Notes under the pieces: model-generated
The model's input: only the letters and a program-made list of their open reading frames with translations
The model's database searches: none
What the model was told of the DNA's origin: nothing
Position numbers and translations under genes: made by a program
DNA from: Octopus sinensis
Lineage: Eukaryota
Length of the DNA: 22,660 bases
Assembly: GCF_006345805.1 (NCBI RefSeq)
Contig: NW_021823987.1
Location: forward strand, 1 to 22,660
Direction: 5' to 3'
Part shown: one piece after another, positions 2,284 through 19,912 of the stretch
How the letters are laid out: the number at the start of each line of letters is the position of its first letter
Position numbering within the stretch: position 1 is the first letter of the stretch

Positions 2284-2362
<79 letters not shown>
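2260..2362. repeat. (ATCT)n tetranucleotide microsatellite
   Basis: Direct inspection. Confidence 0.95.
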
Positions 2363-2364
<2 letters not shown>

Positions 2365-2496
2365 GCTTTATTTAAAGCAGCAGAAAATTCAAAAAAACCT
2401 GTTACTCTGAGTTTCCCGTTGCCGTTCATCGGACAGTTTTTGCTAGAATGGAACCCATATGTCAACTCTATTTTCTGCTGCTTTAAATAAAGCATA
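2362..2496 (-). mobile_element. Small inverted-repeat element with a hammerhead-like motif in its loop
   Basis: Perfect 27-bp inverted repeat, 2362-2388 (TATGCTTTATTTAAAGCAGCAGAAAAT) and 2470-2496, flanked by (ATCT)n tracts. Confidence 0.75.
2395..2440 (-). ncRNA. Type I minimal hammerhead ribozyme-like motif (variant or degenerate)
   Basis: Minus strand: AAAACUGU-CCGAUGA-ACG-GCAA-CGG-GAAAC-UCAGA-GUA-ACAGGUUU. Stem I CUGU/ACAG, GNRA-capped stem II (first pair A-G mismatch), quasi-palindromic stem III ACUC-A-GAGU, cleavage triplet GUA. Core has U4->C. Confidence 0.65.
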
Positions 2497-2565
2497 TTAC
2501 TCTACCACTGGTATCTGAGTACTCTTTTTTCCACCTTGTTTCACATTTATGTGTTTACTACTACG

Positions 2566-2566
2566 G

Positions 2567-2642
<76 letters not shown>

Positions 2643-2652
2643 ATATATATCT

Positions 2653-2695
<43 letters not shown>
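2566..2695. repeat. (ATCT)n-(TA)n microsatellite
   Basis: Direct inspection. Confidence 0.95.
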
Positions 2696-2699
<4 letters not shown>

Positions 2700-2779
2700 G
2701 ATATTATTATACACGTAACTACACGTGGGAAGTTTACATCCTTCTCTTTATCTCTCTCTATACATACATATATATGTTG

Positions 2780-2962
2780 AAAACCGGTGTTGGTGGGTTT
2801 ACGTCCCTGAAACTTAATGGTTCACCAAAAATACCGATGGAATAAGTACCAGGCTTTACAAAAAAAAAAGAAATAAGTATTGGGTTCGATAAGTTCGACC
2901 AAAATTCTTCAAGGCATTACCCCAGCATGGTCGCAGTTTAATGACTGATATAGGTAACAAAA
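2780..2962 (+). mobile_element. Family 2 SINE 3' tail, diverged
   Basis: TTTACGTCCCTGAAACTTA..ACCGATGGAATAAGTACCAGGC..CCAGCATGGTCGCAGTTTAATGACTGA matches the reverse complement of 12850-13000. Confidence 0.8.
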
Positions 2963-3042
2963 AAATCGTTATTTGCACCGTGTAGAATCTGAAACATTTA
3001 TTTACATATTTATGTTTGATAGATTCAGGCGCAAAATATGGT

Positions 3043-3290
3043 GTTTGCCGTAGTATATATATCATAACAGAATAACTTCTCCCCTTTTACGTCGACAATG
3101 TTTTCGACACACTTGGTTCATTGGCGCACAGGATTCTATGAGTAAGGGGGTGCTTCTGACTGACGAGACATAACATGTCGAAAAACTAGTGTCCAAGAAT
3201 CCCGTGCGCCCACGAGCCGAGCGTGTTGAACACATTCACGTCGCAAAAGGGAGAAGTTATTTTCTTTGGATATACATTGCAACGACCAAC
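3043..3290 (+). mobile_element. Long imperfect inverted-repeat (hairpin) element with a hammerhead core in the loop
   Basis: Arm 3071-3137 pairs with 3196-3261 (AATAACTTCTCCC../..GGGAGAAGTTATT; GGCGCACAGGATTCT/AGAATCCCGTGCGCC). Weaker extension to about 3043/3290. Confidence 0.75.
3153..3200 (+). ncRNA. Type I hammerhead ribozyme-like motif (degenerate stems I and III)
   Basis: CUGACGA (3160-3166)-GACAU-AAC-AUGUC-GAAA-A-ACUAGU (palindrome)-GUC (3191-3193). Perfect stem II; position 15.2 is A rather than C; stem I imperfect. Confidence 0.65.
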
Positions 3291-3665
3291 TTATTCTACG
3301 TCTGAACCAGCTCTACAAGCATGTATGTATGTATGTCATCGTTCAGTTTTATTTCAAGATTTCTTGCCAATAAAGAACCGGTTTCTAACCTAGATTCAAG
3401 GCTCCTTCACTGGAATCTCAACACCAACAACACGATATTTTTTGTATGTATGTATGTGTGTAGATTTGTATGTTTTGCTTTATGTATGAATTCGCATTCA
3501 TATAGTTGCATATCTAGGCATGCTCATATATATTTAAACGATAAATTTCTGGAAAGTTTTACAGATTTTTATAGTTCCAGTAGTAGATTGGATTTGTAGT
3601 CTTTAAATTAGCTTTCTCCTTTCTGGTTTTGAGAAGCCTAATTTCTCAAGATTGGCATTTTGGCA

Positions 3666-3666
<1 letters not shown>

Positions 3667-3697
<31 letters not shown>
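3667..3697. repeat. (TG)n microsatellite
   Basis: Direct inspection. Confidence 0.95.
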
Positions 3698-3701
<4 letters not shown>

Positions 3702-3869
3702 TAGATAGATATAGTATATGTGTGCAGTCTAGCGATGGGTTAGCTGGCTGAAACTTCGAAGTCACTCTCAATAATATTCGTAAGAATAATATAATATGCA
3801 TACATGTGTGTGTATGTGTATAAATTTGTTGATAGAAACACTGATTGATATAGATATATAGACATATAC

Positions 3870-4436
3870 AGTCGATCAGATCGACCCCAGTACGCGACTG
3901 GTACTTAAATTTATCGACCCCGAAAGGATGAAAGGCAAATTCGACCTCGGCGGAATTTGAACTCAGAACGTAAAGACACACGAAATGTCGCTATGCATTT
4001 CGCCCGGCGTGCTAACGTTTCTTATTTCTTTATTACCCACAAGGGGCTAAACATAGAAGGGACAAACAAGGATAGACAAAGGGATTAAGTCGATTACATC
4101 GACCCCAGTGCATAACTGGTACTTTATTTATCGACCCCGAAAGGATGAAAGGCAAAGTCGACCTCGGCGGAATTTGAACTCAGAGCATAAAGACAGGCGA
4201 AATACCTATTTCTTTATTACCCACAAGGAGCTAAACACAGAGGGGACAAACAAGGACAGACATAGGCATTAAGTCGATTACATCGACCCCAGTGCGTAAC
4301 TGGTAGTTAATTTATCGACCCCGAAAGGATGAAAGGCAAAGTCGACCTCGGCGGAATTTGAACTCAGAGCATAAAGACAGACAAAATACCGCTAAGCATT
4401 TCGCCCGGTATGTAACGCTTCTGCCAGCTCGCCGCC
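3870..4436 (-). mobile_element. Family 1 SINE, three head-to-tail units (about 3870-4020, 4024-4205, 4206-4436)
   Basis: Three copies of ATCGACCCCGAAAGGATGAAAGGCAAA.TCGACCTCGGCGGAATTTGAACTCAGA; tRNA-like head GGCGGCGAGCTGGCAGAAGCGTTA at about 4413-4436. Confidence 0.92.
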
Positions 4437-4518
4437 TTTTCCAGATATACATATATTTATATAAGCATGTGTACGCGTGTACATATAAGTGCGTATATGC
4501 GAATATATATATATATAT

Positions 4519-4710
4519 TCCAAGAAATCTAATGCTCGTAGCTTAGTTTTTCCTTGGGGCTGGCCGGATCGGAGCGATCTCAAGATTAATCAGCCGAAAT
4601 TGCGAGGATGATCCGGTTCTTGACTGAAGATTAGAAGCTTCGAATGACCCGTCCGATTTTTGTGTTGTCTATTTGAATGTTTTGCGTTCTTGTCCCATTT
4701 TGTATTTCTA
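4519..4710 (+). mobile_element. Family X repeat, copy B
   Basis: Homologous to 1-150 (minus strand) and 13420-13590. Confidence 0.75.
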
Positions 4711-4734
4711 TATATATTTTTTATATATACATAT

Positions 4735-4777
<43 letters not shown>

Positions 4778-4850
4778 AATTAATAAATAAAACATATGCA
4801 TATTACATACATATATGTTACGTACCTACCTCTACATGTATATATACATG
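4710..4850. repeat. (TA)n-rich low-complexity tract
   Basis: Direct inspection. Confidence 0.9.
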
Positions 4851-5024
4851 CGGGTACAGGACTCAAAAAAGACGTCGAACACAATGAGAAACGAAAACAT
4901 AAACACAAAACCAGGGAACTGAACATTTTTCTTAAACAACGAAAAAATAGAGTACAGGACAAATAACTCAAGGAAAATTCCCCTTCTTCAGCCGCCATGG
5001 TTTCATCTACTCTACGTTCGAAGG

Positions 5025-5430
5025 TCAGATCATCCCATAAGTTCTATCTGAATTTTGAATAAAGAAAACAAGTGATCAAAGGTTATATTTAATTGAAATT
5101 TTATCATCAATGTACTTTCCCTGTTTATCTATTACTTCCTTCCATCTATTTACAAGCTTTTTAATCCCATCAATGTAAAACTCTTTCGGTTTCAAAGCGA
5201 AGAACTCTGAAATGTCAGTTTTGACCAACTCCTGGCTTGCGAAAGTTATGTCCCCCAAATGATTCTGTAAACTACGAAACAAATGGTAGTCTGAAGGAGT
5301 AAGGTCGGGAGAATAAGGTGGACAAGCTTTTTAATCCCATCAATGTAAAACTCTTTTGGTTTCAAAGCGAAGAACTCTGAAATGTCAGTTTCGATCTTCT
5401 CCTGGCTTGCGAAAGTTATGTCCCCCAAAT
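5025..5430 (-). mobile_element. Mariner (Tc1/mariner) DNA transposon relic: transposase C-terminus and probable 3' terminal region, with internal 109-bp duplication
   Basis: 5321->5076 translates PPYSPDLTPSDYHLFRSLQNHL...FFALKPKEFYIDGIKKLVNRWKEVIDKQGKYIDD, containing the mariner YSPDL(A)PSD motif and typical C-terminus. TIR-like AACTTATGGGATGATCTGA near 5025-5043. Confidence 0.9.
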
Positions 5431-5575
5431 ACACATACACACACACACACACACACATATGCTTTTATGCATATGTACCCGTGTGTATTTATGTATATGT
5501 TTATACATAGATTTATACAAACATACATACATATGGTTTAGTATAATATATATACGTGTGTGTGTGTGTGTGTGT
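5431..5575. repeat. (CA)n/(TA)n/(TG)n compound microsatellites
   Basis: Direct inspection. Confidence 0.85.
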
Positions 5576-5760
5576 ATTTTTCCCTTGTTTACAATTAACA
5601 TGGAAAAAATAGATAAACACTTTCCAGGGTAGCAAAAAATTACACAAATAATAAGGCCGTAACACCTTGTTTTTAAAGGTAGAAACTCTGGGTTTATGTG
5701 AAATATTTTGTATAATATATATAAATAAATAAATGGAGTTAAACGCGGGTGTTATTCAAA

Positions 5761-5860
5761 TTCTTTTACTTCCGACACATGTTTCAAAGATAACATTGTT
5801 ATTATTCCAAAGGAATAAAGTGGTGTAAAACAACGTAATCTTCTCTTCGGGGAAAAAAAG
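5761..5860 (-). ncRNA. Type I hammerhead ribozyme-like motif with long stem II (variant or degenerate)
   Basis: Minus strand: UUUUCC-CCGAAGA (5850-5844)-GAAGAUUACGUUGUU..AACAAUGUUAUCUUU-GAAAC (5785-5781)-AUGU-GUC-GGAAG. Palindrome ACAUGU in stem III; inner hairpin UUAUUCC/GGAAUAA. Confidence 0.7.
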
Positions 5861-6044
5861 AAATAAAACAAACTCGTCAATAAGACATTTTAACAGAATA
5901 TGATGGATATGTATAATGATGAACGGAACACTATTAAGTTTTTTTTTTTTTTAAATGTTTGAGGATATAACCTCAAAGGTAGCCTGAAGAAAGAAGAGGG
6001 GTAAAGGAAAGAAAAAAAGCAGGAACCAAATAAATGAGAAATAT

Positions 6045-6049
6045 GTTTG

Positions 6050-6101
<52 letters not shown>

Positions 6102-6346
6102 TGTGTGTGTGTATGTATGTATGTATGTATGTAAGTGTGCCAGTATCTTTCTATATATTATACATATTATGTTTGTATGTTTCCATGTCAGTATGTATAT
6201 ATGTGTACGCTTGTATATATGAAGATATGTAAGATATGTAGCGGGTATGTATTTATATATCGATATATAAGCATAAGTGTAGCTATGTGTGTAAGTATTA
6301 CGAATGATGAAGATGTGTGTCTGTGTGTGTGTGTGTGTGTGTGTGC
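6045..6346. repeat. (TA)n/(TG)n/(TATG)n compound microsatellite region
   Basis: Direct inspection; explains the ORFs at 5973-6436. Confidence 0.9.
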
Positions 6347-7074
6347 GAAGCATTTATCCTTGGTGTGACTTTCAATTGCATCTAGTGGTGGAATCCTGGT
6401 TAGAGAGTTCGCGGCTTTTGACGAGTTTGGAATCACTTCTTAACCATTATTGTTCCCAGGGCTACTCTGAACTGCGCTAGTAGCATATGTCAGGGTCCCG
6501 GCTATGGGTTGATTAGCATATTAGGGCTCGCCTAGCTATGCATGTAATAATAGATCAAGCACGCTCTGTTGAAGAAACCTTCATGGTTCAACGGAGAGAA
6601 AGGTGGCTGCAGCAACGGATTGTGGAGCGCAGAGAGCAATACGAGACTAGTAAGGACACCTTACTCATTCACTGTATCTGTCTCCATCTTCAGTCGTCCT
6701 GACTTGGTCTTAACATGGACTTGAAGTTGATCACAGATGAGAGAGTGAGGTTAATGCTGCACAACACTTCATCACCTTAAACAAAGTCACCGCTCAAGTC
6801 ACTAGCCATACTTAAGTATGACCAGACGGTCCTCTTCGCTCCGACGGACGAACGTGTGTGAATATATATGTTTGAGTTTCAGTATGTTCCAGTGTATGTA
6901 TTATGTAAGTGTGTGTAATGCTTACATGTTACTGGAGACACCGTTCGTTACGCAAAACGATTTCTGTTCGAAAAATTATTCGTAAATCGTCTAAATACAC
7001 ACAGAAATATCTACATAACTCACTCAACTTTCATACTGGTCAAAATGGATAAGCCTCCTTCTGTTGCGCATCCA

Positions 7075-7225
7075 TTAATGCTACATCGCCTGAAGAAATG
7101 AATCCATGAAGATTATCTACATGATGCCCACGAATGCTACAGACTACACTGTTATCATCCCAAGAATACGGACTGTGGTCTTAAGTGACATGTGATTTGT
7201 GGAAACGCGCGTAGTGTTGCATTAA
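7075..7225 (+). ncRNA. Type I hammerhead ribozyme-like motif with intact core, palindromic stem III and large stem II insertion
   Basis: UUAAUGC..CGC-CUGAAGA (7090-7096)-AAUGAAUCCAUG...CAUGUGAUUUGUG-GAAAC (7202-7206)-GCGC-GUA (7211-7213)-GUG-UU-GCAUUAA. Palindrome ACGCGCGU; internal hairpin AGACUACA/UGUGGUCU (7141-7181). Confidence 0.7.
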
Positions 7226-7440
7226 AATGCTTATAAATTCCATCCAAGGATTATTGTCATTATTACTATATTTATCTTACATTATATCAGTACAGCTCGG
7301 TGCAACCCCAAAAAACTGGTTCACCAGTAAGCATCATTAGACCATGGTCAGCCTAAGAGTATAGGAGTTTTATTTGTATATTTAAAACGTTTCCTAACTT
7401 AACTAACTTAAAAATATATATATATATATATATATATATT

Positions 7441-8414: not shown

Positions 8415-9310
8415 AGGCAGGGAACTGTGGCAGAAACGTTGGCACGCTGGGTAAAGTGTTTAGCGGCATTTCGCCCGCCTTTACGTCCTGAGTTCAAATG
8501 CCTCGGTGGTTAGCTTTCAGGGCCGATGAAATAAGTACAAGTTGAACATTGGGGACACTGTAATCGACTTACTTACGTACCCGCGAAATTGTCGGCCTTG
8601 GGTCAAAGTCTGAAACTGATATTAGTAATTTTAAATACAAAGGTATGGAGCTGGCAGAATTATTAGGGCGTCGGCAAGGTGCGCTAATAGAAAGGCCGCG
8701 AGCTGGCAGAAACGTCAGCACGCCGGGCGAAATGCTTAGCGGTGTTTCGTCTGCCGTTACGTTCTGAGTTCAAATTCCGCCGAGGTCAACTTTGCCTTTC
8801 ATCCTTTCGGGGTCGATTAAATAAGTACCAGTTACGCACTGGGGTCGATATAATCGACTTAATCCGTTTGTCTGTCCTTGTTTGTTCCCTCTGTGTTTAG
8901 CCCCATGTGGGTAGTAAAGAAATAGGTACTTTGTCTGTCTTTACGTACTAAGTTCGAATTCTACAGAGGTCGACTTTGCCTTTCATCCTTTCGGGGTCGA
9001 TAAATTAAGTATCAATTACGCACTGTGGTCGATGTAATCGACTTAATCCTTTTGCTTGTCCTTGTTTGTCCCCTCTGTGTTTAGCCCCTTGTGGGCAATA
9101 AAGAAATTGTAGGAAATAAAGAATTATTAGCGCTTCGGAGAAAATGTTAAGAGGGATTTCTTCCGGCTGTTTAGGTTCTGAGTTCAAATCCTACGGAGGT
9201 CAGATTTGCCTTTAACCCTTTTGTGATCGATACAAAAAAGGTAGCAATCAATTACTGGGGTCGGTGTAATCGATTGAACTCTCTCCCCTTAACTTTGTGG
9301 TCTCGTGGCT
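8415..9310 (+). mobile_element. Cluster of family 1 SINEs: diverged 8415-8630, young 8695-8927 joined to 8928-9107, diverged 9120-9310
   Basis: A-box-like GCTGGCAGAAACG, B-box GAGTTCAAATTCC, core GGTCGACTTTGCCTTTCATCCTTTCGGGGTCGAT, tail TTAGCCCCTTGTGGG..AAAGAAAT. Confidence 0.9.
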
Positions 9311-12819: not shown

Positions 12820-13740
12820 CTTACTCTTTACTCTTTTACTCTTTTACTTGTTTCAGTCATTTGACTGTGGCCATGCTGGAGCACCGCCTTTAGTCGATCG
12901 AACAAATCGATCCCAGGACTTATTCTTTGTTAGCCTAGTACTTATTCTATCGTTAAGTTACGGGAACGTAAACACACCAGCATCACTTGTCAAACGATGT
13001 TGGGGGGATGGGACAAACACAGACACACAAACATACACACACATACACACACATATATATCCTCTTCCTCCCATCCTCCTTAATCCCTTCTTTCTCCTTT
13101 TCTCTTGGTCACTGATTCTGTCCCCTGCCTTCCACCCTCTTTGATTCCCTCTCTCTCTGTCTCTCTTCTCTCTCTCCTGCGACCTGCTGCTTCTTAAACC
13201 ATTCTGTTGCCTTCGTATCTCGACCAACATGTGTCCCGCTACCGAAACGGTAATTATTTCTACGCCAGCTATGTTGTTGTTGTTGTTTTTGTCTCATTTG
13301 GTCTAAAGTCGTATGACAACCACCGTTATATATATTTTGTTTATTCATTACTGTTTTCAATTTCGTTTTCGTCTCTTGTATTCACATCCGTCTTGTGCGT
13401 TTCACATTCCTGTCTTCTACCAAGAAATCTAATGCTTACAGCTTAGTTTTTTTTCTTGGGCTGGCCGAGTTGGAGCAAATATCAGAATTGAACAGCCGAA
13501 ATTTGCTATGATGATTCGGTGTCTGACTGAAGATTGAAGGCTTCGAATGATTTGTCTGTGTTCCGTGTTCGTCCCTTCCTGTATTTCACGTTCATTATAT
13601 ATAAAAACATTCATTCTTCACAAAGCTTTGGTCGACCCGAGGCTATAGTAGAAGACACTTGCCCAAGGTGCCACGCAGTGGGACTAAACCCGGAACCATG
13701 TGGTTGGTGAGCAAGCTACTTACCACACAGCCACTCCTAC
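12820..13740 (-). mobile_element. Family 2 CORE-type SINE (tail 12820-13055, head 13612-13740) interrupted by a family X copy
   Basis: Head: GAGTGGCTGTGTGGTAAG..GGCACCTTGGGCAAGTGTCTTC. Tail ends in (AGTAAAAG)-type repeats at 12820-12850. Confidence 0.85.
13200..13610 (+). mobile_element. Family X repeat, copy C
   Basis: Homologous to 1-412 (minus strand) and 4519-4710. Confidence 0.7.
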
Positions 13741-15474: not shown

Positions 15475-15625
15475 GTTTTTGAAAAGACGTTTTTTTTTTT
15501 TAAACTGACTGTCGCAGACGTGTAATTTCAAATGAAACTTACCATAGTTGAGGGTCTTCCAGCGGAATGAAAATATGCTGTCTTCGAAACAGGTGTCGAG
15601 AGTAAAGGAATTTTGTTAACATCTT
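15475..15625 (+). ncRNA. Degenerate relic related to the 5761-5860 hammerhead-like motif
   Basis: GTCTTC-GAAAC-AGGT-GTC-GAGAGTAAAGGAATTTTGTTAAC (15580-15620) parallels ATCTTT-GAAAC-ATGT-GTC-GGAAGTAAAAGAATTTGAATAAC. The CUGANGA half is eroded (TTGAAAAGAC near 15480). Confidence 0.4.
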
Positions 15626-15644
15626 CGTTCGACCCCATTCTTCA

Positions 15645-15693
<49 letters not shown>

Positions 15694-15999: not shown

Positions 16000-16373
16000 T
16001 TATTTCTACTCTAGGCACAAGGCCTTGAAAATTACATCGACCTCAGTGAATAACTGGTACTTATTTCCTCGTCCCCGAGAGGATCAAAGGCAAAGTCGAC
16101 CTCGGCATAATTTGAAATCAGAACTTAGCGGTAGACGAAATACTTATTTCTTTACTACCCATAAGGGGCTAAACACAGAAGTGACAAACAAGGACAGACA
16201 AACGGATTAAGTCGATTAAATCGACCCCAGTGCGTAACTGGTACTTAATTTATCGACCCCAAAAGGATGAAAGGCAAAGTCAACCTCGGCGGAATTTGAA
16301 CTCAGAACGTAACGGCAGACGAAATACGGCTATGCATTTCGCCCGGCTTGCTAACGTTTCTGCCAGCTCGCCG
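16000..16373 (-). mobile_element. Family 1 SINE, two head-to-tail units
   Basis: Head GGCGAGCTGGCAGAAACGTTAGC at about 16350-16372; junction AAAGAAATAAGTATTTCGTC near 16135-16153; alternative tail GGCCTTGTGCCTAGAGTAGAAA near 16003-16024. Confidence 0.9.
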
Positions 16374-17517
16374 ATTTTTAAAATAATATTTAACTATAAA
16401 AATGCAATAGGCTTGTTTTACAAAGTATAGTTCACAGGTGATCTAAACAATTAGGTATGCTAGGTAAGTGCTAGTGAAAGGCAACGGAGATCCAGTAAAC
16501 TAAAATAGGAACCAAAGGACCTATAGGCAAAAAATTGTTACAAACCGCATGTGTAAACCTTTATCGGCCCTGACAGAGCCTACTTATGATTTAAAAGGGT
16601 CTGTGACCATCTTGCAGATGGTGTTGAAAGTTTCGTAAAAATAAAAGTATTTTCGATAAATACAATTATTTTTTGAAATCTTCACTTGACTAGTTGAGTG
16701 TGATAAACGTAAAACTCCTTAAAGTTATTAATCATCGCTTCGATTTTCATATCAATAACCATCAATATCAATCATTCTGCTGGAAATTTATAGAACCATG
16801 TAATGCGTGTGTGGCGAGAAGATAAAGCAGAAATTTAAAAGAAATAAGGTTGGACGTGTTAGAAGATGCAAAGGTAATGTGCAGATGTATTGATCCTTTT
16901 ACTGCGGAAATCAGATATATCCGTTCAAAATTTCTTTACTCTTAACTGCGGAAAGCAATTCTATATACCAACCTATCTTTCGTTGAATGTCATGTTTAAA
17001 ACTGATTTTTGTTCAGATATAGCGAATTTGTTGAGGCAACGTGACTTGCAGGAAATATTAATGATATTTTGAGAGCAGATATTTAACATCATTACTGAAA
17101 TTACCATGTAGTTTAATTTCACAGTTAAAGAGTTAAACAACGAAAGGTTTATTTTTCCTTCGTTCATTTTTTAATAATGTTCACTACTTTTCAACTCATC
17201 GGAAAAATCATCTGCTCTCAACGTTTCGATTCTTAATGTCCTCCTCGTATTTTTGTTTAAGACTACAGGACAAGATTGGAGCGAGGTTAAGTACAATGTT
17301 TCATAGCTCCAGCAACCATGAAGAGGCTCACTCGACACTCGAAGCCACATGTATGTCTGGTCAATGTATATCATTGATAGTAACTAAGCCAGACTCACCA
17401 CAGACAAATTTAAGAACAGGTATACTTAGCAGACACCCACTCGTTTAGATTAATAACTCTATCTACTTTTCCACTGGTTGATATATCCAGTTGTATAGCA
17501 AGGTAGTTTTATACCAA

Positions 17518-18760: not shown

Positions 18761-18774
18761 ATTATCATTATTTA

Positions 18775-19912
18775 AGGCGGCGTGCCGGTAGAATCGTTAG
18801 CGCGATGAACGAGATGTTTAGCAGTATTTCGCCTGTCGCTACTTTCAGAGTTCAAATTCCGCCGAGGTCGACTTTGCCTTTCATCCTTTCGGGTCGATGA
18901 ATTAACTACCAGTGTTACACTAGTGTCGATGTAATCGACTTGCCCCCCTCCTCCAACTTTCAGTCCTTGTGCCTATAGTAGAAAAGATTATTTAAGGTTT
19001 CGAACTGGCAGAATCGTTAGCACGCCGGGCAAAATTCTTAGCGGTATTTTGTCTATCGCTACGTTCTGAGTTCAAATTCCGCCGAGGTCGACTTTGCCTT
19101 TCATTCTTTCGGGGCCAATTAAGTAAGTACCAGTTGAGTACTGGGGTCGATGTAATTGACTTAATCCCTTCCTCAGCATTTCAGACCTTGTCCCTACTGT
19201 CGAAAAGATTATCATTATATGCTGGGTGACGGAATCGTTAGCACGCCGGACAAAATGCTTAGCGACATTTCATCCGTCTTTACATTCTGACTTCAAATTC
19301 TGAAGAGGCCAACTTTGCTTTTCCTCTTCTCGGGGTTGATATAATGAATACCAGTCAAGTACTAGGAGCAATAAAATTGACTAAACCCACTCACCCAAAA
19401 TTTCAGGCTTGTGAGCTGGCAGAATCGTTAGCACACCAGGCAAAATGCTTAGCGAAATTTCGTCTGTCACTATGTTCTGAGTTCAAATTCTGTCGAGGTC
19501 GACTTTGCTTTTCATCTTTTCGGGAGTCAATAAAATAAGTACCAGTTGAGAACTAGTGGCGGGGCGAAATGCGTAGCGGTATTTCGCCTGTCTTTACGTT
19601 CCGAGTTCAAATTCCGCCGAGGTCGACTTTGCCTTTCATCCTTTCGGGGTCGATAAATTAAGTACCAGTTACGCACTGGGGTCGATGTAATCGACTTAAT
19701 CTGTTTGTCTGTCCTTGTTTGTCCTCTCTGTGTTTAGCCCCTTGTGGGTAGTAAAGAAATAGGTACTTCGTCTGCCGCTACGTTCTGATTTCAAATTCCG
19801 CCGAGATCGACTTTTCCTTTCATCCTTTCGGGGTCGATAAATTAAGTACCTGTTAAACGCTGGGGTCGGTGTGATCGACTAGTCCCCACCCCCAAAATTT
19901 CAGGCCTTCTGC
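18775..19912 (+). mobile_element. Tandem array of about six family 1 SINE units of mixed divergence
   Basis: Units start near 18775, 18995, 19222, 19413, 19561 and 19762, each with a TTCAAATTC B-box and a GGTCGACTTTGCCTTTCATC-like core. Confidence 0.92.

What the first reader, a model, noticed from the sequence alone, without database searches (positions are those of the whole stretch)
2362..7225. Four sequence-unrelated hammerhead-like motifs with palindromic stem III within 5 kb: a diverse set of ribozyme-bearing non-autonomous elements
Seen: motifs at 2395-2440(-), 3153-3200(+), 5761-5860(-) and 7075-7225(+) all follow type I order (stem I, CYGANGA, stem II, GAAA, tiny stem III, GUH, stem I'). 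Each has a self-complementary stem III/loop (ACUC-A-GAGU, ACUAGU, ACAUGU, ACGCGCGU), yet they share no other sequence. Known: minimal type I hammerheads with palindromic stem III occur in Penelope-like element pseudo-LTRs and metazoan retrozymes and cleave as dimers. Inference: several independent non-coding PLE-derived or retrozyme-like families populate this genome. No PLE RT or GIY-YIG coding sequence is visible in the window.
Basis: partly seen in the sequence, partly recalled or inferred. Interest (0 to 1): 0.8.

Follow-up and report, generated by a model that had tools for sequence, protein, structure and literature searches.

The report
Penelope retroelement ends carrying hammerhead ribozymes
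The four hammerhead-shaped motifs are real: three are the truncated tail ends of protein-coding Penelope-like retrotransposons and one belongs to a 320-base non-coding repeat that likely spread as a circular RNA using Penelope enzymes, so this is a new example of known elements, not a new kind.

Summary
All four motifs are real type I hammerhead folds (4 hits versus 0.008 in shuffles). Each is the 3' end of a separate multicopy family. They are not four non-coding families. Motif 1 ends an autonomous 3.35-kb Penelope-like element with a 711-aa ORF: 30 of 30 ORF-selected loci carry it. Motifs 3 and 4 end related coding families; motif 4's is decayed. Their proteins show Hydra-clade motifs, and hammerheads in Hydra elements are published, one of them from Octopus. 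Only motif 2 is non-coding: a 324-nt unit whose end runs into its own start in 20 of 29 loci, with no Penelope-type protein match, i.e. an old retrozyme-like family. Some of its copies have the head-to-head 5' inversions typical of Penelope insertions. Such motifs occur about once per 31 kb genome-wide, so the cluster is dense but needs no special cause. Smaller novelties: helix II inserts of 58 and 105 nt (compensatory changes in the 58-nt one), and a U4C core change in a very young intact subfamily. Self-cleavage and circular RNA are untested.

The parts
2366..2471 (-). m1 sense piece: last ~105 nt of an autonomous Hydra-type PLE. Hammerhead: helix I CUGU/ACAG extended to ~15 bp, core CCGAUGA, 2-bp helix II with GCAA loop, stem III ACUCAGAGU, predicted cut 2403/2402
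2470..2559 (+). m1 inverted 5' piece: last ~27 nt of the element plus the ~67-nt tail; makes the copy look like a MITE with terminal inverted repeats; flanked by (TCTA)n/(TA)n
3148..3320 (+). m2 sense piece: hammerhead (6-bp helix I, 4-5-bp helix II, decayed 10-nt palindrome; predicted cut 3193/3194) plus ~125 nt of a 324-nt non-coding unit; the window copy has C15.2>A and mismatches in helix I
3021..3137 (-). m2 inverted 5' piece (same unit, head-to-head with the sense piece)
5730..6044 (-). m3: 5'-truncated 3' end of a second Hydra-type PLE; core CCGAAGA at 5850, 58-nt extended helix II, stem III ACAUGUGU, predicted cut 5774/5773
5569..5729 (-). m3 tail (in full elements this sequence leads to the ORF start of the next unit)
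6991..7275 (+). m4: 5'-truncated 3' end of a third, decayed Hydra-type PLE; core CUGAAGA at 7090, 105-nt helix II insert folding as one interrupted hairpin, stem III ACGCGCGU, predicted cut 7213/7214
7276..7412 (+). m4 tail, ending at (TA)n

Best explanation
Three of the four motifs are hammerhead folds at the 3' ends of 5'-truncated copies of protein-coding Penelope-like retrotransposons with Hydra-clade protein motifs, and the fourth marks a 324-nt non-coding unit that closes on itself and was likely copied from a circular RNA by Penelope enzymes. Shown: family membership, linkage to the ORFs, fixed 3' ends, tails, 5' inversions, (TA)n flanks for m1 and m3, and end-to-start continuity for m2. 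Inferred, from published models: an element bounded by two pseudo-LTRs is transcribed; its two hammerheads pair through the palindromic stem III and cut out a unit-length RNA; the RNA is ligated into a circle; the endonuclease nicks (TA)n DNA and the RT starts about 40 nt 3' of the cut site (about 150 nt for m2), copies across that site, and usually stops early, leaving short 3' ends like these four. The single truncated copies in this window are most likely inert.
For: m1: 30 of 30 loci chosen by the ORF carry the m1 end downstream; L197 has hammerhead-ORF(711 aa)-hammerhead with a 3353-nt period. m3: L270 and L271 carry m3 (87%) next to 415-417-aa open frames that match the m1 protein (E 1e-42, 2e-37); a related subfamily (77% over the hammerhead region) has intact ~774-aa ORFs. 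m4: upstream DNA matches the m1 protein (E 3e-20); 22 of 30 loci chosen by its endonuclease stretch carry the m4 end. Hydra motifs as defined in PMC8557442 are seen. The m1 helix I and stem III match Hydra-2_aMil in that paper's File S2, apart from the loop base. m1 ends cluster at +30-49 (38 of 86) and +100-119 (38 of 86), and 72 of 86 are followed by TATA/ATAT, against 1125 of 10000 random positions. Inverted pairs: m1 14 of 56 loci, m3 6 of 30, m2 7 of 26 and 5 of 29. m2: end-to-start continuity in 20 of 29 loci, several copies longer than one unit, no PLE-protein hit in 30+29 loci. m3 helix II: 4 of 11 pairs change on both sides across 10 chosen variants, 95.5% of cells paired; the whole structure drops from 91% to 32-49% paired when slid.
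Against: No cleavage or circular RNA was observed. Copies that cross the cut site fit an uncut tandem transcript as well as a circle. Pfam gave no hit for the m1 and m3 proteins, so the RT/endonuclease call rests on motif comparison with the published Hydra alignment rows and on homologs; no tree was built. The Cys linker is altered in m1 (CxFx5C) and absent in the m3-related ORF. m2 shows little (TA)n flank (12 of 63), matches none of the 11 PLE loci tested, and showed no long tandem array, so its partner is unidentified. m1 has only a 2-bp helix II and no G10.1-C11.1 pair. U4C is reported to lower activity considerably in vitro (PMC3088659). The 10 m3 variants were hand-picked and related; pairs changed on both sides were reached by 59 of 500 shuffles.
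Confidence: 0.87

Rival explanations
1. All four are separate non-autonomous, non-coding ribozyme elements.
For: No coding sequence in the window; most held copies are short; the four share no DNA similarity; true for m2.
Against: m1, m3 and m4 extend upstream by variable lengths into related PLE ORFs.
Confidence: 0.03
2. The element anatomy is as described, but the hammerheads in these lineages cut poorly or not at all. They act as folded signals for the element's protein or ride along, and the RT template is an uncut tandem transcript.
For: U4C cores: 36 of 84 complete m1 cores and 18 of 57 complete m3 cores among held copies, and in the youngest intact m3-related elements (99.4-99.8% identical). 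m1 has a 2-bp helix II. Metazoan PLE hammerheads cut weakly in vitro even as dimers (PMC4209133). In a 2026 preprint 8 of 9 predicted frog retrozyme dimers showed no cleavage. Naiads spread without canonical hammerheads.
Against: Core boxes, the palindrome and the cleavage triplet are kept across families with no other similarity. U4C still allows viroid infectivity, and 2-bp or mismatch-started stems II occur in natural hammerheads. The young m1 subfamily has the canonical U4.
Confidence: 0.3
3. m2 is not a retrozyme but the pseudo-LTR or a deletion derivative of an unfound autonomous PLE, spread from linear RNA or by DNA duplication.
For: It has PLE-type inversions and a preferred 3' end; only 1-2 units per locus were seen; the searches scored only 40 candidates each.
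Against: In 20 of 29 loci the unit's end runs into its own start; copies longer than one unit continue cyclically (L315, L317, L324, L325, L331); no PLE protein hit in 59 loci. A deletion derivative that spreads as a closed unit is in effect a retrozyme.
Confidence: 0.12
4. m1 and m2 are MITE-like DNA transposons, because the window copies show terminal inverted repeats.
For: 27-bp and ~80-bp inverted ends in the window.
Against: The inversion point varies between copies, most copies lack it, the arms end at two different fixed points (core end and tail end), and m1 is joined to an RT-type ORF.
Confidence: 0.02
5. The motifs are chance matches in AT-rich, microsatellite-rich DNA.
Against: 13 hits in an unbiased 400 kb against 0.35 in shuffles; each motif sits at a fixed distance from a family's 3' end.
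Confidence: 0.01

Closest known systems
Hydra clade of endonuclease-bearing Penelope-like elements (Craig et al. 2021, PMC8557442), incl. Hydra-1_Obim and Hydra-2_aMil
   Same: Single ORF with RT and C-terminal GIY-YIG-type domain; RWK, DKT, no CCHH, CxxC and CxH around the conserved E and N; (TA)n insertion; type I hammerhead near the 3' end. m1 helix I (CUGU/ACAG) and stem III (ACUC-x-GAGU) equal those of Hydra-2_aMil.
   Different: These are other families (Hydra-1_Obim has a different hammerhead). The m1 unit is 3.35 kb with a ~1-kb 3' UTR, against generally under 3 kb. Helix II regions of 58 nt (m3) and 105 nt (m4) are longer than any Hydra entry in File S2 (up to about 25 nt by my count). 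The linker is altered (m1) or missing (m3 relative). U4C cores occur.
Minimal type I hammerheads of metazoan PLE pseudo-LTRs (Cervera and de la Pena 2014, PMC4209133)
   Same: Palindromic stem III, weak as a monomer; mostly single motifs from truncated copies; pairs on opposite strands 100-700 bp apart; many sequence families per genome.
   Different: m1 and m4 lack the G10.1-C11.1 pair that the paper found highly conserved; the extra nucleotide after A9 is absent in m2 and m3; helix II is much shorter (m1) or much longer (m3, m4).
Metazoan non-LTR retrozymes (Cervera and de la Pena 2020, PMC7229834; Li, Clavereau and Pollet 2026 preprint 10.64898/2026.07.22.740005)
   Same: m2: 324-nt non-coding unit, 42% GC, hammerhead with 6-bp helix I and 4-bp helix II, head-to-tail continuity, in a genome that also holds autonomous PLEs.
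   Different: An old family (63-82% identity between copies), dispersed as 1-2 units; no long arrays seen; expression not shown. It carries head-to-head 5' inversions and a preferred 3' end. The 2020 paper has no occurrence of 'inverted' and the preprint has it only in a reference. Neither text mentions octopus.

Membership tests
Type I hammerhead ribozyme | Core boxes CUGANGA, GAAA, UH in type I order with helices I-III | tested here: met
   complete core (U4 or C4) in 84 of 87 m1, 57 of 75 m3, 40 of 54 m4 and 6 of 26 decayed m2 copies. Window m1 and m3 carry U4C.
Type I hammerhead ribozyme | Helices kept by compensatory change | tested here: inconclusive
   Met for m3 across subfamilies (hand-picked, related rows). 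Not testable for m1, m2, m4, whose copies differ mostly by neutral decay.
Type I hammerhead ribozyme | Site-specific self-cleavage | not testable with these tools
   Needs a transcription assay.
PLE (m1, m3, m4) | Single ORF with RT and GIY-YIG-type endonuclease upstream of the hammerhead end | tested here: met
   m1 intact; m3 broken, with an intact relative; m4 broken only. Pfam silent; identification by motifs and homologs.
PLE (m1, m3, m4) | Pseudo-LTR / partial tandem, 5' truncation, inverted 5' copy, tail | tested here: met
Hydra clade | RWK, DKT, CCHH absent, CxxC and CxH near the C-terminus | tested here: met
   m1: RWK, DKT in 6 of 8 proteins printed, CKLC/CRLC, CRH. m3 relative: RWL, DKT, CLLC, CKH. 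m4: C-terminal motifs only, from broken frames.
Hydra clade | CxCX5C linker | tested here: inconclusive
   Present in one m4 copy (L246); second Cys replaced by Phe in m1; absent in the m3-related ORF.
Hydra clade | (TA)n insertion preference | tested here: met
   m1 72 of 86 ends, m3 21 of 43, background 11%; the m4 count was unusable.
Hydra clade | Phylogenetic placement with reference Hydra RTs | not tested
   No tree with reference sequences was built.
Non-LTR retrozyme (m2) | 170-400-nt non-coding head-to-tail unit with a type I hammerhead | tested here: met
   324-nt unit; end-to-start in 20 of 29 loci; two hammerheads in tandem in L038/L041, L040, L059; no PLE protein hit.
Non-LTR retrozyme (m2) | Multimeric tandem arrays | tested here: inconclusive
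   At most about two units in the loci seen; only 40 candidates were scored per search.
Non-LTR retrozyme (m2) | Expressed as circular RNA | not tested
Non-autonomous element (m1, m3, m4) | Family lacks coding capacity | tested here: not met

The most novel reading that the evidence does not exclude
This genome gives structural evidence that a retrozyme was mobilised by Penelope machinery from a circular template: m2 copies cross the ribozyme cut site, exceed unit length, and carry PLE-type head-to-head 5' inversions and a preferred 3' end. At the same time, Hydra PLEs here expanded recently with hammerheads that break the usual rules (58-105-nt helix II, 2-bp helix II, U4C in elements more than 99% identical). 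These form a natural series in which to test whether PLEs need ribozyme cleavage at all.
Probability: 0.5. Interest if true: 0.55.

Novelty: new member of a known kind. Interest (0 to 1): 0.3.

Why it matters
As a catalogue entry it is ordinary: hammerheads at PLE ends, Hydra PLEs in an octopus and retrozymes in a mollusc are all in print. Its value is as test material for two open questions, what PLE hammerheads do and what moves animal retrozymes. The genome holds near-identical intact elements with canonical cores (m1 young subfamily) and with U4C cores and long helix II (m3 relative), and a retrozyme-like family with PLE insertion marks. Descriptors with short helix II limits would miss m3- and m4-type motifs: 4 of the 13 unbiased hits had 45 nt or more between the core boxes, so published counts may be low.

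Tried and rejected
Rfam scan: only microsatellite-driven miRNA-type hits in the rows shown, no hammerhead. Pfam: no hit for the m1 or m3 proteins. A GIY-YIG family search pulled mostly a different PLE group that has the CCHH motif; m1 pieces near 3 of those 30 loci look like independent insertions. MITE reading rejected. An upstream CUGANGA-like box at 5880 (UUGACGA) was rejected as the m3 core; 5850 gives the full helices. Sequencing runs: no RNA holder listed. Contigs of four guessed-RNA runs laid on L197 showed high summed depth over the hammerhead/tail bins and loose ends at the same two 3' end points; contigs cannot show ends, strand or expression and the pattern also follows genomic copy number, so it is not used. 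Default alignment folding of decayed m2 and m4 copies gave no structure. With a lower penalty m4 folded, but m2 gave a non-hammerhead pairing of only -1.6 kcal/mol, so the m2 helices rest on column counts. m4 end counts were spoiled by unrelated repeats in the reference. No autonomous partner was found for m2 among 11 PLE loci or for the repeat at 4518-4705. No intact m4 ORF: the longest open frame among the best 30 hits is 205 aa. Lunse et al. 2016 on dimer cleavage was not held; it is known here only through a review. Two look-ups in earlier scan notes returned nothing.
Full report
Setting. The window is a whole 22.7-kb contig of a 2.72-Gb animal genome, rich in microsatellites and dispersed repeats. 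It is probably an octopus. That rests on my recall of the 184-bp repeat at 3882-4408 and on the likeness of its PLE proteins to Hydra-1_Obim; it was not tested.

Observation. All four motifs are present in type I order, with cores at 2432(-), 3160(+), 5850(-) and 7090(+). The first descriptor found 4 hits in 2362-7225 against a shuffled mean of 0.16; m1 passed only its looser setting, and a weak extra hit at 4991 was among the four. A second descriptor, written after seeing the motifs, found exactly the four against 0.008. Because it was tuned, I also ran it on 40 stretches of 10 kb taken at round coordinates: 13 hits against 0.35 in 20 shuffles, at most 2 per stretch. That scales to about 88,000 motifs in the genome (95% range 47,000-151,000), and about 14 (1-108) five-kb windows with four or more by chance alone. 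The cluster is dense but needs no special cause. The four elements share no DNA similarity, and the window has no PLE protein match. The stem III segments form self-duplexes and no monomer hairpin.

Families. Each motif is multicopy: 756, 70, 3611 and 1593 candidates, of which 40 were scored per search. Copies share a 3' end and vary in 5' extent.

m1. The longest copies run into the end of an ORF. A search with that frame gave 118 matches, several with open frames of 721-728 aa, and 30 of 30 fetched loci carry the m1 end downstream (L167 and L168 look like duplicates). L197 is a whole element: hammerhead, 711-aa ORF, ~1-kb 3' UTR, hammerhead, with a 3353-nt period. Such elements are 98.6% identical to each other. 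3' ends fall at about +40 and +110 from the predicted cut (38 and 38 of 86 pieces), the second including a tail; 72 of 86 are followed by TA repeats, against 11% background; 14 of 56 loci have a head-to-head inverted piece. The window copy is a ~105-nt end plus an inverted tail. The young subfamily has CUGAUGA; the window's subfamily has CCGAUGA with A11.1 changed to G.

m3. Upstream DNA encodes a homologous protein. L270 and L271 hold m3 at 87% identity next to 415-417-aa open frames. A related subfamily (77% over the hammerhead region) has intact ~774-aa ORFs, 40% identical to the m1 protein over residues 1-466. Its elements are 99.4-99.8% identical and carry CCGAAGA. The 58-nt region between the core boxes is an extended helix II (6 bp, 5 bp, distal hairpin). 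Across 10 hand-picked variants, 95.5% of its proximal cells pair and 4 of 11 pairs change on both sides; slid controls for the whole structure fall to 32-49%. The rows are related, and one of the five measures was reached by 59 of 500 shuffles and another by 171 of 500, so this is support, not proof.

m4. Longer copies extend more than 1 kb upstream into broken frames that match the m1 protein (E 3e-20). 22 of 30 loci chosen by its endonuclease stretch carry the m4 end. No intact copy was found. The 105-nt insert folds in the family as one long interrupted hairpin.

m2. No PLE protein match in 30 and then 29 loci. The sequence upstream of the hammerhead is the end of the same 324-nt unit. In a second set, chosen by the far side of the unit, 20 of 29 loci run end-to-start across the cut site, several exceed one unit, 5 of 29 have inverted pieces, and the 23 measured 3' ends fall at +130 to +192. 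Copies are 63-82% identical, so the family is old. TA flanks are not clearly enriched (12 of 63), and no partner PLE was found.

Clade. PMC8557442 defines Hydra by RWK, DKT, loss of CCHH, a CxCX5C linker, CxxC and CxH motifs, (TA)n targets and canonical hammerheads (section 11 read whole; passages; supplement searches and part 2). It lists Hydra-1_Obim from Octopus bimaculoides. The m1 and m3-related proteins show these motifs except the linker. Pfam is silent on both; 1076 homologs exist, the best 120 at 41-57% identity and almost all unnamed. No tree was built. In File S2 several Hydra hammerheads have a U facing a U at the base of helix II, so the mismatches in m1 and m4 have a precedent; none has a helix II region as long as m3 or m4.

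Mechanism. Shown: anatomy and linkage. Inferred: dimeric cleavage through the palindrome and circularisation, as proposed in PMC4209133 (parts 1-2 of 4 read), then priming at a nick in (TA)n. Genomic copies end downstream of the cut site and cross it unbroken, so the template was either a circle or an uncut multimer; a cut linear monomer is excluded if the cut site is as predicted. Whether these ribozymes cut is open. U4C lowers activity in vitro but permits viroid infectivity (PMC3088659, passages), and 8 of 9 frog retrozyme dimers did not cut in a 2026 preprint (parts 1-3 of 5 read; its supplements were not seen).

Prior art and verdict. Retrozymes of 170-400 nt are known in a mussel, and PLEs were proposed as their movers (PMC7229834, passages and section 14). 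The preprint argues that they derive from PLE pseudo-LTRs. Searches for hammerhead with octopus or cephalopod, for retrozyme with inverted and for long helix II in PLEs found no description of these families or of such long helices; the library lacks most subscription papers, and Lunse et al. 2016 was seen only through a review (passages). Interest 0.3.

Noticed in passing
window 4518-4720 (+) and 13420-13600 (+): A fifth repeat family inside the finding's range: young (96-98% identity, 2800 candidates), variable 5' end, fixed 3' end at (TA)n with an occasional ~35-nt tail, and a hammerhead-like core with GAAU in place of GAAA. Probably another PLE-type end; no ORF link found.
   Followed up: partly
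window 15557-15650 (+): 3' half of a hammerhead from an m3-related subfamily (86-88% to L162, L270, L083), truncated before the first core box and ending at (TA)n.
   Followed up: partly
window 5076-5420 (-): Duplicated fragment translating to PPYSPDLTPSDYHLFRSLQN, which I recall as a mariner transposase C-terminus; Pfam gave no meaningful hit.
   Followed up: no
window 3882-4408, 8691-9107, 16031-16378, 18774-19889: Abundant 184-221-bp tandem/dispersed repeat in both orientations; recalled as an octopus SINE-like repeat, not tested.
   Followed up: no
L263-L265 ORF; L197 ORF: The Cys linker proposed to guide (TA)n targeting is missing in the young m3-related ORF and altered in m1, yet their copies still end at (TA)n.
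   Followed up: partly
m1 family, core positions 4 and 11.1: The two m1 subfamilies differ together at U4/C4 and A11.1/G11.1, which keeps a possible alternative pairing (UCU/AGA against UCC/GGA) that would block the active fold; a single event, so only a hint.
   Followed up: no
L073, L176, L097, L123, L311, L281: Further hammerhead families with long AT-rich helix II regions (45-87 nt) whose length varies within a family.
   Followed up: no
L160, L161, L162, L164: Intact 775-781-aa PLE ORFs of a second group (RT plus GIY-YIG with CxxC and His residues; Neptune-like by my recall), some near-identical across chromosomes, with their own short hammerheads at L161 and L162.
   Followed up: partly
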